A DNA stretch of 64,000 nucleotides from the human T2T-CHM13v2.0 reference genome, Homo sapiens: assembly GCF_009914755.1 (NCBI RefSeq), contig NC_060945.1; one strand, 5' to 3'. This document shows positions 25,972-51,096 of this stretch, in pieces. A program made the position numbers and the translations under genes. The notes beneath the pieces were generated by a model, which did no database searches, was not told the origin of the DNA, and worked only from the letters and a program-made list of their open reading frames with translations. Position 1 is the first letter of the stretch. Each line of letters begins with the position of its first letter.

Positions 25972-26719
25972 CTCCAATCTGTGCTGGTGAAAAAGCTTGA
26001 TCTCTCTCTGCTGTATTACCAGAGAGAACAGACCCAGCTGTGAAACAGCCCAAGGACCTGCGCTTATTGATCAAAATCTAAAATGAGCTCCTTAATATGT
26101 TAAATTGCTACAATGTATGTGTGGATCGCAGGTGAAATTCAACATTAATTTAAAAAAGAAATGCATGCCTAAGTAATACCTTGGACCTGAAAAAAAGAAA
26201 ATGAACAAAAAGTGAGCTAAGCGCACTTTAACTCAGGTGAGTCTCAAGAGAAAACAAAAAAAGCCATTTGGAACACGTGCCTCCCAAATGCGAAGCCCCG
26301 TATTCCGGGAAGGCCCTTGTGTCGAGAATGGTGGAGGGTCTGTTGGAGGGCAGCCCAGGCAGACTGCAAAAGCAGGCTGGTGTGGGCATACACTGCCCTT
26401 AACTCGATCTGGGCATGAGCATTCCTGTCCTGACAGGCTCAGCAGCCAAATGGGGCAGAGAGGCACGTGTGAGGTGGGTCCCCATTGTCCATTAATGACA
26501 CTACCCACTGTCCTGGTCCAGTAAGTTGACTTGTGAGCTCCTGAACCCCATCTTCCCTCTCTGATAACACCTGCGTGTGTTCATTTCTCTCTCTTAAATG
26601 TCTCCACTCCCTCCTCCTTTCTCCCTGCTACTGCCTTAGGGAAAGGGACCATTGCTGGGCCACTGTAGCCATCTCCTTACTCCCAGGCTTGCCTTTCTCC
26701 CCACAGTGGCCTCAGCTAT

Positions 26720-28636
26720 CTTTCTTTCTTTCTTTTTCTTTTTCTTTCTTTTTTTTTTTTGAGATGGAGTCTCCCTCTGTTGCCCAGGCTGGAGTGCAAT
26801 GGTGCGATCTCGGCTCACTGCAACCTCCGTCTCTAGGGTTCAGGTGATTCTCCTGCCTCAGCCTCAGGAGTAGCTGGGATTACAGGCGCCCGCCACCATG
26901 CCTGGCTGATTTTTGTATTTTTAGTAGAGACGGGGTTGCACTGTGTTGGCCAGGCTGGTCTCAAACTCCTGACCTCAGGTGATCTGCCTGCCTTGGCCTC
27001 CCACAGTACTGGGATTACAGGCGTGAGCCACTGCACCCGGCCCAGGTAGCTTTCTTAAAGGCAAATCTGTCACTACCCTTCCTAACACCCTGCAGGGGCT
27101 CCCTGTATTATATGGTTCCTTAGCTGGATGAGGGACCCTTGGTGTTTTAACTTCTTCCTGCAAAAAGGGGCTTCACTTTTTTTTTCTTTAATTCTTAACC
27201 TTTATAATATTCAAGAATGCCTTTCCAGAACAGGGATTGTGCAAGGCATTGTGGATCTACGTCTTCTTTACGGGCTCTGTGTTCCCCTACTCCCACTCCT
27301 TTTTTTCTTTTTTCTTTTTTTTTTTTTGAGACAGAGTCTCCGTCTGTCACCCAGGCTGGAGTGCAGTGGCACGATCTCGGCTCACTGCAACCTCCACCTC
27401 TGGGTTCAAGCAATTCTCCTGCCTCAGCCTCCCAAGTAGCTGGGATTACATGTGCATGCCACCATGCCCAGCTAATTTTTGTAGTTTTAGTAGACACAGG
27501 GTTTCACCATGTTGGTCAGGCTGGTCTCGAACTTCTGACCTCAGGTGATCCACCCACCCTGGCCTCCCAAAATGCTGGGATTACAGGCGTGAGCCACTGC
27601 GCCCAGCCTCCATTTCCTTTTTTTTTTTTTAGACGGAGTCTTGCTCTGTCCCCCAGGCTAGAGTGCAGCGGTGCGATCTCAGCTCACTGCAAGCTCTGCC
27701 TCCCAGTTTCATGCCATTCTCCTGCCTCAGCCTCCCGAGTAACTCGAACTACAGGTGCCCGCCACCACGCCCCACTATTTTTTTGTATTTTTAGTAGAGA
27801 CAGGGTTTCACTATGTTAGCCAGGATGGTCTCGATCTCCTGACCTCGTGATCCACCCACCTCAGCCTCCCAAAGTACTGGAATTACAGGCGTGAGCAACC
27901 GCACTCGGCCTCCATTTCTTAATATTGCAGAGAAGCACCTCATTTCCCAGGCTTACTAGTCTAACTTAGCCACATGTGTTTTAAGAAGCAGCAGTAAGTA
28001 ACATCCCTGTCAGTTGTTCTTTTCAGCAGAATTCAGTTGGCCAAGCAGGTAAATCTGTAAGCCGAATGGTTTGTGTTCACTTGGTCACTGCCTTTCATTC
28101 CTAGGAATGGTAGATGAAAGTTGGATTTAATTAATTAATTTATTTATTTATTTATTTTTGAGACAGACTCTCGCTCTGTCGCCCACGCTGGAGTGCAATG
28201 GTGTGATCTCCGTTTACTGTAACCTCCACCTCCCGGGTTCAGGTGATTCTACTGCCTCAACCTCCTGAGTAGCTGGGACTACAGGCATGTGCCACCACAC
28301 CCAGCTAATTTTTGTATTTTTAGTAGAGATGGGGTTTTACCATGTTGGCCAGGCTGGTCTCGAACTCTTGACCTCAAGTGATCCACCCGCCTTGGCCTCC
28401 CCAAAGTGCTGGGATTACAGGTGTGAGCCACTGCGCCCGGCTGAGAGTTGGATTTAAAAAGGAAAAGTATACCAGACGCAGTGGTTTATGCCTGTGTAAT
28501 CCCTGCTACTCTGGAGGTTGAGATGGGAAGATCCCTTGAGGCCTGGAGTTTGAGGTTGCAGTGAGCTATGATCGCACCTCTGCACTCCAGCCTGGGCCAC
28601 AGAGAAAGACCCTGTCTCTTAAAAGAAAAAAAAAAA
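26720..28636. mobile_element. Alu cluster (~26720-27042 -, ~27300-27608 -, ~27617-27910 -, ~28130-28442 -, ~28470-28636 + monomer)
   Basis: Alu consensus matches. Confidence 0.85.
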
Positions 28637-47706: not shown

Positions 47707-50700
47707 GGCCGGGCACGGTGGCTCACGCCTGTAATCCCAGCACTTTGGGCGGCCGAGGCGGGTGGATCACCGGGGGTCAGGAGTTCGAGACCAGCCTGGC
47801 CAACATGGTGAAACCCCGTCTCTACTAAAAATACAAAAATTAGCCGGGCATGGTGGCAGGCGCCTGTAAGCTACTTGGTCGGCTGGGGCAAGAGAATTGG
47901 TTGAACCTGGGAGGCAGAGATTGCAGTGAGCCAAGACTGCACCACTGCACTCCAGACTGGGTGACAGAGCGAGACTCTGTCAAAAAAAAAAAAAAAAAAA
48001 AAAAAAGCACAGTGGAGGGCAAAGAGAGAACCATTTGAAGGGAAGAAAATGGAGGGAGGGAGTCCAGTTACTAGACTTGCTGCAAAACTGACAGGGCTGG
48101 AACTGAGGCTATGGCAGGAGAGTAGGAGGAGATGATAGGTGCAGACGTGTGGAGTCAAAGGTGGCTGGAAAGAGTAAAGACAATCATTGCACATGGCGGA
48201 GTGCCGGAGTGGCCAGCGCTGAAGGCAGAGATCCTGGCCTCGGCTCTCAGTGGTTTGGTAGTGGCAGGGATGGACTTGGGACTGAATGGAGTGTGCAGAA
48301 AGGAGAAGAGAGCCCAGACCCAGTGCATTTTGCAGGGCCCTGTGCAAAATGAAAATGCAAAGCCCCTTGTTCAAAAATATATCAGAATTTCCACCAGGCA
48401 CAGGAATGAGCTTACTCTGGGTGGGCAGGCCTGCAGAGGGCACCAGGATAGAGGAATCAGAGACCACCAGGGTGATGAGCACCAGGGAGCTGAGGTCAGT
48501 GAGAAATCCCTCAATAGGGGCATTTAGGCACCGGAAGTTCCAGAGATAGGGAAGGATTAGGATCACCCCTCATCTCTTGGATGGGATGGTGATAAGTCCA
48601 TGTGATCTCCTCAAAGGGATCAGTTTCGGGGTGTGTGTGGGACAGGGGCATATTGAGGAGGGGAGGATACAGGATGGGAGGAGAGATGCAGGGGAGGCAT
48701 AGAGATCCTTTCTAGAAGGCTGACTGAAGGAAAAGCATAAGTCTGGAGAGAGGTCCTGGGAACTGGGGAGAGCAGTTTTTGTTGTTAGAGGGTAGAGGAG
48801 TTTGTCATCTATAAGACGTGAGCAGACATGCACAGGACTTTGTGTGGCTGGGGTCCCTGCCCCTGTGCCTTCATACTCTCCCTGACCTATGCTTCTTCAC
48901 AGCACCAGCCCTTGGCCTCTCTGGGCATGAACCCCCCACAGGCATCTCCAGATTTGAGCCTTTTCTTCAAAATCTCGGCCCACCTCAAATGCAGGACAGT
49001 TTTCTTTTGTTTTTTTTTTTAATGACTTTATGATCGTGTCCTTCAAACTGCCTACTCCTAACAACTTCCCTCATCTCTCAGTAGCACCACTGTTTCCCCA
49101 GCCCTGCAGCTTAAGATCTGAAACCATCCTTGGTCGGTCCCTCACCCACCCTTTCATGGAGACTGGGGTAGTGGGGCTCAGAGATCAACCTGCAGGCCCC
49201 GCTCTTCTCTAGCTGTGTGAGGTTACTGAACCTCTCTGTGTCTGCTGTCTCAGCCACAAAATTGATGTGTGTGTGTGTGTGCATGCACAAGTGTGTGTAT
49301 TACAAACAGCCTATCTCATAAATAATTATCTGTATTTATTGGGCTCCTACAGTGGGCCAGGTGTGGGAACTAGATGATGACCAAAACAAACATAGTTTCT
49401 CACTATACAAGTGCTGAGAGCAGTGGCTGACATCATGCTACCTGTTATATTATAAGTGAATGGAACTTTGCAAAGTCTCTAAAATTCTCTCCTCTTCCAT
49501 TCCTTGCTCTTTAAGCCTGTAACTCCCCTCAATGTACATTCTTAAAATTGCTTCCAAACTGCTCTCCTTGCCTTTGGTTCCCGTTTCTCTCCCAGGGAAT
49601 CCTCTACACTGTCCCCTAAAGACAATAGTGTCAGGCATTTCTTTAGGCTTCCTGTTGCTTGCAGAGTAAAGTCTGAATTCTTTAGCTAAGCCTTTGAAAG
49701 TGTCTCTGTCTTGTTCCAGTTCACATTTCCTACTCATTCGCTGTGGTCGCCCCGCCTACTCCCGCCTTTCCAGCCTGTGGCCAGCCCCTGCAGGGGCTCC
49801 TAGCCCACTGCCTTAGTGTTCATGCTTTCTCTCTTGCCTGCCTCTACCCAATTTCTGCTCTTTCTTTCATGATCCAGCCCCTCTGCTCCCACGCACAGCG
49901 ATCTCTCCCGCCTCTGACCTAGCACCTCTTGTCTGCACCACGTCCTGCTGACAGTGATTCACTGTTTCCACTATCAGACACCAGCTCTCACATGTGTGTT
50001 TTGACTCTCTAGCTCTATTGCAAATCCTGTGAAAGGATGCTTTCATCTGGGTAAAAAGCAAGGTAGGCTTTTTATTTATTTATTTATTTATTTATTTATT
50101 TATTTATTTATTTATTTGAGACGCAGTCTTGCTTGGTCGCCCAGGCTGGAGTGCAGTGGCACAATCTCGGCTCACTGTAACCTCTGCCTCCCAGGTTGAA
50201 GCAATTCTTGTGCCTCAGCCTCCCGAGTAGCTGGGACTACAGGCACATGCCACCACACCCGGCTAATTTTTGTATTTTTAGTAGAGATGGGGTTTTGCCA
50301 TGTTGGCCAGGTTGGTCTCGAATTCCTGACCTCAGGTGATCTGCCTGCCTCCGCCTCCCAAAGTGCTAGGATTACAGGCGTGAGCCACTGTGCCTGGTCC
50401 TCTTTTTACTGTTTTTTTCTGATGGTACTTAGCACAGTGCCTCATCCACCATAGGTGTTCAACTGATATTTACTGATTTTAATGATGTTGTGCCAGGGCA
50501 CCGAAAAACAAATCTTCATGTCAATTAGTTTATTTCATTCATTCATTCATCAGATATTTACTTGCCTTCTACAGTGGGCGAGGTGTGAGAATTAGATGAT
50601 GAACAAAACAGAAATAGTCTCTCCTGGAGCTTATGTTCATGTAGAGGAGATTGATTCTCAAAATAAACAAACAAATAATATATTTCAAAGCATGGTAAAG

Positions 50701-51096
50701 GTCGTAAAAGAACCAAGAATCTTCATTCAATGTTCTTCATATTTTAACCAGTGCAAAATGAAAATGCAAAGCCCCTTGTTCAAAAATATATCAGAATTTT
50801 GACCGGGTGCGGTGGCTCACACCTGTAATCCCAGCACTTTGGGAGGCCGAAGCAGGCAAATCACTGGAGGTCAGGAGTTTGAGACCAGCCTTGCCAACAT
50901 GGTGAAACCCCATCTCTACTAAAAATACAAAAATTAGCTGGGCATAGTGGCATGCGCCTGTAGTCCCAGCTACTGGGGAGGCTGAGGCAGGAGAATTGCT
51001 TGAAGCAGGGAGGCAGAGGTTGCAGTGACTGAGATCGTGCCATTGCACTCCAGCCTGGGCGACAGAACAAGAATCAGTTTCAAAAAAAAAAAAAAA
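47707..51096. mobile_element. Alus (~47707-48006 +, ~50068-50399 -, ~50801-51096 +) among L2/MIR remnants
   Basis: Alu consensus matches; envelope range. Confidence 0.85.

What the first reader, a model, noticed from the sequence alone, without database searches (positions are those of the whole stretch)
26564..50799. Cluster of at least eight short, locally templated duplications in EVA1C intron 4
Seen in sequence: pairs 26564-26669/29209-29350, 28923-29379/29745-29968 (inverted), 38674-38882/40381-40900, 42280-42322/44345-44387, 45193-45347/44390-44544 (inverted), 46700-46841/47622-48068, 48342-48390/50751-50799 and 49333-49401/50555-50623. Copies are 43-220 bp and about 0.4-2.6 kb apart. 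They lack poly(A) tails and TSDs, three inserts visibly split older repeats, and two are multi-template mosaics. I noticed none outside this intron, but the search was by eye. Established knowledge: such junctions are signatures of template-switch repair (FoSTeS/MMBIR or Pol-theta templated insertion). Inference: a germline hotspot or one burst of events. One insert sits in an AluJ-like element and two pairs were later split by AluS-type elements, which with about 5-11% divergence in most pairs suggests an early anthropoid date.
Basis: partly seen in the sequence, partly recalled or inferred. Interest (0 to 1): 0.8.

Follow-up and report, generated by a model that had tools for sequence, protein, structure and literature searches.

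The report
Cluster of ancient break-repair patch duplications
One intron of the human EVA1C gene carries at least five short patches copied from DNA a few hundred to a few thousand bases away, old scars of imprecise break repair of an already described kind, and only their crowding into about 22 kb is unusual.

Summary
All 8 claimed pairs exist at the stated coordinates. Six (P1-P6) are true local duplications. For five of them the whole 3.1-Gb genome holds only the two local copies. The sixth lies in an L1-like repeat, yet its partner is 95% identical against 84% for the best other copy. Four acceptor sites are identified: inside an old Alu, inside an L1, at a two-donor mosaic, and one whose empty site survives in another copy. 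None has a poly(A) tail or a target-site duplication. Junctions show microhomology, filler or small deletions.

This matches the "repair-mediated duplications" of Pace et al. 2009 (PMC2671141): 824 human cases, donor under 5 kb away, mean 162 bp, peak 30-42 Mya. The kind is therefore known.

P7 belongs to a dispersed transposon-like family. P8 is about 21% diverged and older.

Pooled divergence of the core pairs is 7.9% and homogeneous (p=0.51), about 33-42 Myr. This fits an origin after an old Alu and before two AluS-level insertions.

In 336.5 kb of controls, including the 100 kb flanking the window, I found 0 comparable pairs by the strict filter and 3 short ones by a sensitive filter. The clustering is probably real, but its cause (hotspot, single burst or chance) is unresolved. 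Ortholog dating was not possible.

The parts
26564..26669 (+). P1 donor
   Evidence: Only one other copy in the genome, the P1 acceptor.
29209..29350 (+). P1 acceptor, 142 bp. The first ~20 nt of the donor are copied twice in tandem, followed by a 16-nt orphan, then 84-85 nt at 92.9%.
   Evidence: Shown to be an insertion because the inverted P2 copy of this region lacks it and keeps the empty site.
28923..29378 (+). P2 donor region, now interrupted by the P1 acceptor.
   Evidence: The part 28923-29101 has only two copies in the genome. The donor-only piece 29102-29185 is unique in the genome.
29746..29973 (-). P2 acceptor, 228 bp. An inverted, collinear copy of 28923-29378 that lacks 29102-29185 and the P1 acceptor.
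   Evidence: It sits between reference-Alu position 236 and about position 232 of one old Alu. No TSD, no poly(A), about 5 nt of filler at one end.
29693..30193 (-). Old Alu hosting the P2 acceptor (pieces 29693-29745 and 29974-30193).
   Evidence: Non-CpG divergence is 13.6% from the majority consensus of 147 pooled Alus, against a pool median of 6.9%.
38674..38907 (+). P3 copy A. It is unbroken across the point where copy B carries an Alu.
   Evidence: 38674-38855 is 90.7% identical to copy B. 38856-38907 is only 72% identical.
40381..40923 (+). P3 copy B, split by an Alu at 40561-40857 plus A-tail with a TSD of about 13-15 bp. Which copy is the donor is not known.
   Evidence: The Alu has 5.6% non-CpG divergence.
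42280..42322 (+). P4 donor
   Evidence: Only two copies in the genome.
44345..44544 (+). Mosaic acceptor, 200 bp. 44345-44387 is a direct copy of 42280-42322, then 2 nt, then 44390-44544 is an inverted copy of 45193-45347.
   Evidence: The left flank is an older repeat (44082-44350, 70% to control block B2). The 6 nt TGTAAG are shared by this flank and the donor. Continuation of the old repeat on the right flank is only suggestive.
45193..45347 (-). P5 donor, in its native place inside an L1-like element (44590-46167, itself split by the Alu at 44888-45174).
   Evidence: other L1 copies align continuously across it; 95% to the acceptor against at most 84% to any other genomic copy scored.
46700..46845 (+). 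P6 acceptor, 142 bp copied plus about 4 nt, inserted into an L1-like element.
   Evidence: Another L1 copy bridges the site with about 14 nt where the window has more than 142. There is a small loss of host sequence and no TSD or poly(A).
47622..48068 (+). P6 donor, later split by an Alu (47709-47996 plus tail, TSD GCACAGTGG).
   Evidence: The Alu has 5.4% non-CpG divergence. It overlaps the RefSeq enhancer 47232-47741 (hub annotation).
48339..48398 (+). P7 copy A: an end of a dispersed transposon-like family. Ambiguous, not counted.
   Evidence: 154 candidates. Matches by other copies start at window 48329 and mostly end near 48391.
50748..50807 (+). P7 copy B, abutting the Alu at 50802-51115. 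Ambiguous, not counted.
   Evidence: 49 of 49 identical to copy A, while the other family copies scored are 78-95% identical to it.
49303..49401 (+). P8 copy A: an older local pair, not part of the set.
   Evidence: 21 of 99 mismatches with copy B.
50522..50623 (+). P8 copy B

Best explanation
Window 26.5-48.1 kb (EVA1C intron 4) holds at least five acceptor sites. At each, a chromosome break in the germline of an ancestral anthropoid was patched with 140-230 bp copied from a template 0.4-2.6 kb away on the same chromosome, in direct or inverted orientation.

Inferred mechanism: a resected 3' end invades or anneals to a nearby ectopic stretch through a few bases of homology. It is extended by a polymerase, sometimes slipping or switching to a second template. 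It then dissociates and is joined to the other end with microhomology, filler or a small deletion. This is the SDSA-type 'capture of proximal DNA' of Pace et al. 2009. MMBIR/FoSTeS or Pol theta variants of the same idea cannot be separated by sequence.

Shown here: the copies exist, they are unique to the locus, four acceptors are insertions, and Alus entered two copies later.

Inferred: the break, the enzymes, the date of about 33-42 Myr, and that the crowding of five such scars into about 22 kb reflects a common cause rather than chance.
For: 1. Uniqueness. P1, P2, P3, P4 and P6 have exactly two copies in 3.1 Gb, both local. P5's partner is 95% identical against at most 84% for the 38 other family copies scored.

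2. Acceptors.
- P2 lies inside one old Alu, with no TSD.
- P6 lies inside an L1 that another copy bridges.
- The P1 acceptor is absent from the inverted P2 copy of the same stretch.
- The P4+P5 chimera abuts two donors of different orientation, while the P5 donor is native inside a continuous L1.

3. Junctions. TGTAAG is shared at the mosaic's left junction, AACTG at the P3 left edge, and TGTG..CAG at the P6 left edge. Filler of 2-5 nt occurs. The P1 acceptor shows stutter plus a 16-nt orphan. No poly(A) is present.

4. Match to the published class. Pace et al. report 824 proximal RDs, 66% of all their duplicons under 3 kb apart, mean 162 bp, maximum 619 bp, 20 chimeric acceptors, microhomology/filler/deletion at breakpoints, no poly(A), and the highest rate at 30-42 Mya (PMC2671141).

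5. Date. Pooled divergence is 62 of 783 (7.9%), homogeneous with chi-square p=0.51. This gives 33-42 Myr. The host Alu has 13.6% non-CpG divergence and the later Alus 5.4-5.6%.

6. Crowding. Strict filter: 7 pairs in intron 4, 0 in 336.5 kb. Sensitive filter: 5 against 3, p=1.1e-4. At Pace's density of about 0.6 per Mb, five in 27.5 kb is expected in about 1e-6 windows genome-wide.
Against: - No primate orthologs could be examined. Empty sites are inferred only from interrupted repeats and one paralogous copy.
- The polarity of P3 is unknown.
- The right flank of the mosaic gives no significant match to the old repeat.
- The P2 acceptor lacks 84 bp of its donor, which needs an extra jump or a later deletion.
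- The second part of P3 is 28% diverged against 9.3% for the first (Fisher p=0.0016). This is unexplained.
- The control sample is small: 336.5 kb, of which 200 kb is AT-rich (GC 0.34-0.40 against 0.47 in the window).
- With the highest base rate my controls allow (8.9 per Mb), about 0.7 windows like this are expected somewhere in the genome by chance. This window was picked from a very large scan.
- The homogeneity test has modest power.
Confidence: 0.85

Rival explanations
1. Chance crowding. The five scars are ordinary, independent repair-mediated duplications that fell into one intron with no local cause, and were noticed because a very large number of windows was read.
For: The sensitive scan finds 3 short RD-like pairs in 336.5 kb of controls. 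At that rate, about 0.7 such windows are expected genome-wide. Pace et al. saw no trend for RDs to cluster. Most RDs of any locus would date to the same 30-42 Mya peak, so similar ages need no common cause.
Against: The three control pairs are 46-59 bp, and one is part of a large palindrome. No control pair reaches 80 bp, whereas all five acceptors here are 140-230 bp. At Pace-like densities of 0.6-2 per Mb, the expected number of such windows is 1e-6 to 5e-4. The P1 acceptor landed inside the P2 donor, 0.4 kb from the P2 acceptor.
Confidence: 0.25
2. One burst. A single multi-break or replication-restart event re-synthesised the stretch with repeated short template switches (MMBIR/FoSTeS-like, a kilobase-scale chromoanasynthesis) and left all the patches at once.
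For: Divergences are homogeneous (chi-square 5.27, 6 df, p=0.51). Two acceptors show multiple switches: the P1 stutter and the P4+P5 mosaic. The P2 copy lacking the P1 acceptor also fits copying from an unbroken parental or sister template during one event.
Against: The five acceptors are spread over 17.6 kb with normal sequence between them, so each needs its own departure and return. No larger copy-number change or inversion accompanies them. P2 (10.6%) and P5 (4.5%) differ at an uncorrected p=0.04. The test has low power.
Confidence: 0.25
3. Independent copies of dispersed repeats, or the two ends of single elements (LTR pairs, terminal inverted repeats, L1 5' inversion by twin priming).
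For: This is true for two things in the region. P7 is an end of a dispersed family. The extra inverted pair 23960-23993 / 24531-24498 is the two ends of a MITE-like family with 528 candidates. P5 consists of L1 sequence.
Against: P1, P2, P3, P4 and P6 have no third copy in the genome. The P5 arms are 95% alike against at most 84% to any other copy scored. The inverted copy lies beyond the end of the L1 that I read, from a recalled L1 ORF2 sequence, as its 3' side, whereas a twin-priming inversion sits at the 5' end. The similarity covers only 43-234 bp and not whole units.
Confidence: 0.03
4. Gene conversion between pre-existing neighbouring paralogues keeps them similar, with no insertion events.
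For: Close inverted or direct repeats can convert one another. P7 (49 of 49 identical within a family whose other scored copies are 78-95% identical) could be such a case.
Against: Four acceptors interrupt older elements or a preserved empty site, so the copies arrived as insertions. Tracts end sharply and the flanks are unrelated.
Confidence: 0.03

Closest known systems
[quoted passage not shown] I read the abstract, the Results and Discussion sections 14 and 17.
   Same: The acceptor interrupts a repeat. There is a single donor elsewhere in the genome, on the same chromosome and under 5 kb away. Lengths of 140-230 bp compare with their mean of 162 and maximum of 619. Both orientations occur, chimeric two-donor acceptors occur, junctions carry microhomology, filler or deletion, and there is no poly(A). 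The age falls in their 30-42 Mya peak.
   Different: They report no tendency of the 824 RDs to cluster, whereas here five acceptors lie in about 22 kb. One acceptor (P1) and possibly P3 are not inside annotated repeats, so their pipeline would not have seen them.
'Nearby doublets', Thomas et al. 2004 PNAS. The paper is not held. I know it only from the citing passage in Pace et al. and from recall.
   Same: Short paired duplications lying close together, proposed to come from imperfect break repair.
   Different: Per Pace et al., such studies dealt with identical or nearly identical duplicons under 100 bp. The pairs here are longer and 5-11% diverged.
FoSTeS/MMBIR templated insertions at rearrangement junctions (established knowledge; PMC8421209 seen as listing and abstract start only).
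   Same: Microhomology-primed switches to nearby templates, several templates per junction, either orientation.
   Different: No accompanying large copy-number change or rearrangement is seen. Each event is a small patch with a return to the original site.
Pol theta end joining and short fold-back templated insertions (recalled; PMC11724301 abstract start: most about 5-34 bp in yeast).
   Same: Stutter, orphan nucleotides and microhomology, as in the P1 acceptor.
   Different: The patches here are 5-10 times longer and the templates lie up to 2.6 kb away.
Short-range template switches in great apes (PMC7954356, listing and abstract start only).
   Same: Local, often inverted re-copying during replication.
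   Different: From recall of that literature rather than from the abstract text I saw, those events are tens of bases long and replace sequence in place. The patches here insert 140-230 bp at a distance.

Membership tests
Repair-mediated duplication (Pace et al. 2009) | The inserted sequence interrupts an older element, or has a demonstrable empty site. | tested here: met
   Met for 3 of 5 acceptors firmly: P2 in an Alu, P6 in an L1, and P1 through the paralogous empty site. The mosaic is probable. P3 is unknown.
Repair-mediated duplication (Pace et al. 2009) | The insert is found at only one other place in the genome. | tested here: met
   P1, P2, P3, P4 and P6 each have exactly two places. 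The P5 donor is L1 sequence with many relatives, but the partner is 95% identical against at most 84%. The search is word-based and can miss copies below about 80% identity.
Repair-mediated duplication (Pace et al. 2009) | [quoted passage not shown] | tested here: met
   Gaps are 649-2590 bp. Acceptors are 142, 228, at least 182, 200 and 142 bp.
Repair-mediated duplication (Pace et al. 2009) | Breakpoints carry microhomology, filler or deletion, and no poly(A) tail. | tested here: met
   Junctions were read. No poly(A) is present at any acceptor. Exact host deletions can only be estimated without orthologs.
Repair-mediated duplication (Pace et al. 2009) | An orthologous empty site exists in an outgroup species. 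| not testable with these tools
   No primate genomes are held. Only the window's own genome could be searched.
MMBIR/FoSTeS complex rearrangement | Templated segments sit at the junction of a larger copy-number change or rearrangement arising in one replication event. | tested here: not met
   Self-alignment shows only short patches and no larger duplicated, deleted-and-joined or inverted block. Whether it was a single event is not testable here.
   Not met for P1-P6. Met or nearly met for P7 and for the extra pair at 23960 / 24531.

The most novel reading that the evidence does not exclude
The five acceptors are the fixed scars of one multi-break germline accident, or of a short-lived and extremely local break hotspot, in an ancestral anthropoid about 35-40 Myr ago. 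That would make this the first described cluster of repair-mediated duplications, in a class reported not to cluster, and a natural record of how one stretch of chromatin was repeatedly patched from templates within 3 kb.
Probability: 0.3. Interest if true: 0.55.

Novelty: new member of a known kind. Interest (0 to 1): 0.35.

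Why it matters
Each patch is an ordinary example of a published class, so the mechanism adds nothing new. The crowding would matter if a genome-wide scan showed it to be exceptional. 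It would then mark either an extinct germline break hotspot or a small one-off catastrophic repair event that reached fixation, and it would contradict the reported lack of clustering of such duplications.

The locus also offers a neat internal clock. The order of events is old Alu, then the P2 copy, then the P1 insertion, then AluS-level insertions. One copy preserves the empty site of another. One donor overlaps an annotated enhancer, so part of that element was duplicated 0.9 kb upstream.

Tried and rejected
- LTR pairs, terminal inverted repeats and L1 twin priming were considered for the direct and inverted pairs. They were rejected by genome uniqueness and by the position of the P5 copy relative to the L1.
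- A single larger tandem or inverted duplication was rejected. The offsets differ (+2681, +1707, +2065, +922; two different inversion centres) and similarity covers only 43-234 bp.
- An extra inverted pair at 23960 / 24531 looked like a ninth event but is the two ends of a MITE-like family.
- The 345-bp insert splitting the Alu at 36079-36425 has no local or genomic template, so it is not part of the set.
- I suspected, from recall only, that the weakly matching right part of P3 and the P8 pair are MIR/L2-like. Sensitive searches of the 364-kb pool gave no third copy, so this is untested.
- Transposon-excision footprints as the source of the breaks were rejected for the P2 site, because the host Alu shows no duplicated target.
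- Only 300 kb of control sequence could be fetched.
- Thomas et al. 2004 is not held.
- Literature searches gave no report of clustered RDs. In one search, none of the 10 papers listed (of 486 found) mentions EVA1C. Of the 8 held papers that cite or use the term, none concerns clustering, judging by title.

Full report
**1. Observation**

Pairwise blastn of the stated intervals recovered all 8 of 8 pairs:

| Pair | Coordinates | Orientation | Identity |
|---|---|---|---|
| P1 | 26585-26669 / 29266-29350 | direct | 92.9% over 85 bp, plus a 19-bp exact piece |
| P2 | 28923-29101 / 29968-29790 | inverted | 89.4% over 179 bp |
| P3 | 38674-38847 / 40381-40554 | direct | 92% over 174 bp |
| P4 | 42280-42322 / 44345-44387 | direct | 93% over 43 bp |
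| P5 | 45193-45347 / 44544-44390 | inverted | 95.5% over 155 bp |
| P6 | 46700-46785 / 47622-47707 and 46772-46841 / 48002-48068 | direct | 91.9% and 88.6% |
| P7 | 48342-48390 / 50751-50799 | direct | 100% over 49 bp |
| P8 | 49333-49401 / 50555-50623 | direct | 84% over 69 bp |

A self-alignment of the whole 64-kb window left 16 low-copy matches once Alu-like high-copy stretches were set aside. The 8 with at least 86% identity all lie at 23.9-48.1 kb with their partners under 2.6 kb away. The other 8 are at most 77.6% identical.

**2. Are they dispersed repeats?**

The window's own genome (3.1 Gb, 24 contigs) could be searched.

- P1, P2, P3, P4 and P6 have exactly two places in the genome, both local.
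- P5 is L1-like sequence with 3392 first-look candidates. The local partner is 95% identical, while the best of the 38 other copies scored is 84% and most are 79-82%. Two independent insertions of that family would be about 80% alike, so the copy was made long after the L1 arrived.
- P7 is different. 154 candidates match, with most alignments starting at window 48329 and ending near 48391. This is how the end of a transposon family behaves. The other copies are 78-95% identical. The 49-of-49 identity and the 2.4-kb distance still hint at a local copy, but I do not count it.
- P8: each half finds only itself and nothing else in the 364-kb pool. The pair differs at 21 of 99 sites, so it is a much older event.

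**3. Anatomy: which copy is the insert**

*P2.* An old minus-strand Alu is cut between 29745 and 29974. Reference-Alu positions 288-236 lie to the left and about 232-3 to the right. The 228 bp in between carry no target-site duplication and no poly(A). They form an inverted copy that is collinear with 28923-29378, but they lack 29102-29185 and lack 29209-29350.

*P1.* The stretch 29209-29350, missing from the P2 copy, is exactly the P1 acceptor. The P2 copy therefore preserves the empty site of P1. P1 is a later insertion, or one made on a different strand of the same event. The P1 acceptor repeats the first ~20 nt of its donor twice, adds 16 orphan nucleotides, then copies 84-85 nt.

*P4 + P5.* 44345-44387 (a direct copy from 2.0 kb upstream) and 44390-44544 (an inverted copy from 0.65 kb downstream) abut with 2 nt between them. 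The P5 donor lies inside an L1-like element that other copies align across continuously, apart from a later Alu. The left flank of the mosaic is an older repeat that shares TGTAAG with the P4 donor. Continuation of that repeat on the right flank is only suggestive.

*P6.* The copy at 46700-46845 interrupts an L1-like element. Another L1 copy bridges the site with about 14 nt where the window has more than 142. So this is the acceptor, and 47622-48068 is the donor.

*P3.* Polarity could not be decided.

*Later Alus.* The Alus with target-site duplications at 40561-40857 (in P3 copy B) and 47709-47996 (in the P6 donor) are absent from the partner copies. They entered after the duplications.

**4. 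Date**

Over the core segments, 62 of 783 aligned sites differ (7.9%; non-CpG 6.9%). There is no heterogeneity (chi-square 5.27, 6 df, p=0.51). P2 against P5 alone gives p=0.04 uncorrected. With the rate used by Pace et al., this is about 33-38 Myr, and up to 42 Myr with 1e-9 per lineage.

Measured against the majority consensus of 147 pooled Alus (median non-CpG divergence 6.9%), the Alu hosting P2 is 13.6% diverged and the two later Alus are 5.6% and 5.4%. Subfamily names were not tested.

**5. Enrichment**

I fetched four random 50-kb blocks (drawn) and the 50 kb on each side of the window. The flanks match the intron in GC (0.45-0.46) and in high-copy load (0.27 against 0.29). The random blocks are AT-rich.

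- Strict filter: gap 50-5000, at least 85% identity, at least 40 bp, and identity at least 5 points above any other pool hit. Of 42 local matches examined, 8 pass, making 7 pairs (P1-P7). All are at window 26.5-50.8 kb. None are in the 336.5 kb outside intron 4.
- Sensitive filter: word 7, high-copy parts masked. There are 5 in the intron (P5 is masked out) against 3 outside. The three are 46-59 bp long, and one belongs to a 1.3-kb palindrome. Binomial p=1.1e-4.

The genome-wide look-elsewhere effect depends on the base rate. At Pace's density of about 0.6 per Mb, five in 27.5 kb is expected in 1e-6 windows. At 2 per Mb it is 5e-4. At the 8.9 per Mb that my small control cannot exclude, it is about 0.7. 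I judge the crowding probably non-random, but not proven.

**6. Comparison with what is known**

Pace, Sen, Batzer and Feschotte (2009, PMC2671141; abstract, Results, Discussion sections 14 and 17 read) describe this phenomenon. Their findings:

- 1,136 insertions of at least 50 bp interrupt repeats and have one other genomic copy.
- 824 of them have the donor within 5 kb, and 66% of all are under 3 kb apart.
- Mean length is 162 bp, median 147 and maximum 619.
- 20 acceptors are chimeric.
- Breakpoints carry microhomology, filler and deletions, and never poly(A).
- The authors attribute the events to SDSA repair of double-strand breaks.
- The highest rate, 18.3 per Myr, falls at 30-42 Mya.
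- They state that the 824 showed no trend to form clusters.

The pairs here meet every defining feature I could test. Orthologous empty sites could not be tested.

No larger rearrangement accompanies the patches, and they are far longer than typical Pol theta inserts (the latter from recall). I therefore file them as repair-mediated duplications.

**7. Verdict**

The kind is already described. The local density is the only unusual aspect, and its cause is open. My estimates are hotspot about 0.35, one burst about 0.25 and chance about 0.25, with the remainder unassigned. Literature searches turned up no report of clustered RDs or of this locus.

Noticed in passing
window 35901-36547: An old Alu (reference-Alu positions 1-173 and 176-294) is split by a 345-bp stretch at 36079-36425. 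The stretch starts with T12, has no target-site duplication, and has no second copy in the genome. It is an insert of unknown source.
   Followed up: partly
window 23960-23993 and 24498-24531: 34-bp inverted arms (97%) flank the Alu at 24076-24370. They are the ends of a dispersed MITE-like family with 528 genome candidates, not a local templated copy.
   Followed up: yes
window 38856-38907 / 40874-40923: Identity between the P3 copies drops from 91% to 72% right at the target-site duplication of the Alu in copy B (Fisher p=0.0016). This is unexplained. An old SINE-like stretch at both sites is a recalled guess that pool searches did not support.
   Followed up: partly
window 28147-28633 and 50102-51115: Two closely spaced inverted Alu pairs. 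One pair, 28147-28440(-) / 28471-28633(+), is only 30 bp apart and about 290 bp from the P2 donor. The other, 50102-50398(-) / 50802-51115(+), is 400 bp apart and about 210 bp upstream of exon 51327-51470.
   Followed up: no
window 44571-46167: The L1-like element holding the P5 donor lacks its own 3' end and abuts an older repeat at about 44593. This suggests an old deletion or rearrangement beside the mosaic acceptor.
   Followed up: partly
window 47622-47707: The first part of the P6 donor lies inside the RefSeq 'enhancer' 47232-47741 (hub annotation), so part of that element was duplicated 0.9 kb upstream into an L1.
   Followed up: no
loci L003 (places 7541-8876) and L004 (places 2461-2858), from G000:C11:103469001-103519000; window -33922..-33240 (in L022): The control sequence holds three items: a 1.3-kb imperfect palindrome (76-88%), a 48-bp direct pair (87.5%, 303 bp apart), and a 46-bp direct pair (89%, 594 bp apart) upstream of EVA1C. 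The last two are possible small repair duplications.
   Followed up: no
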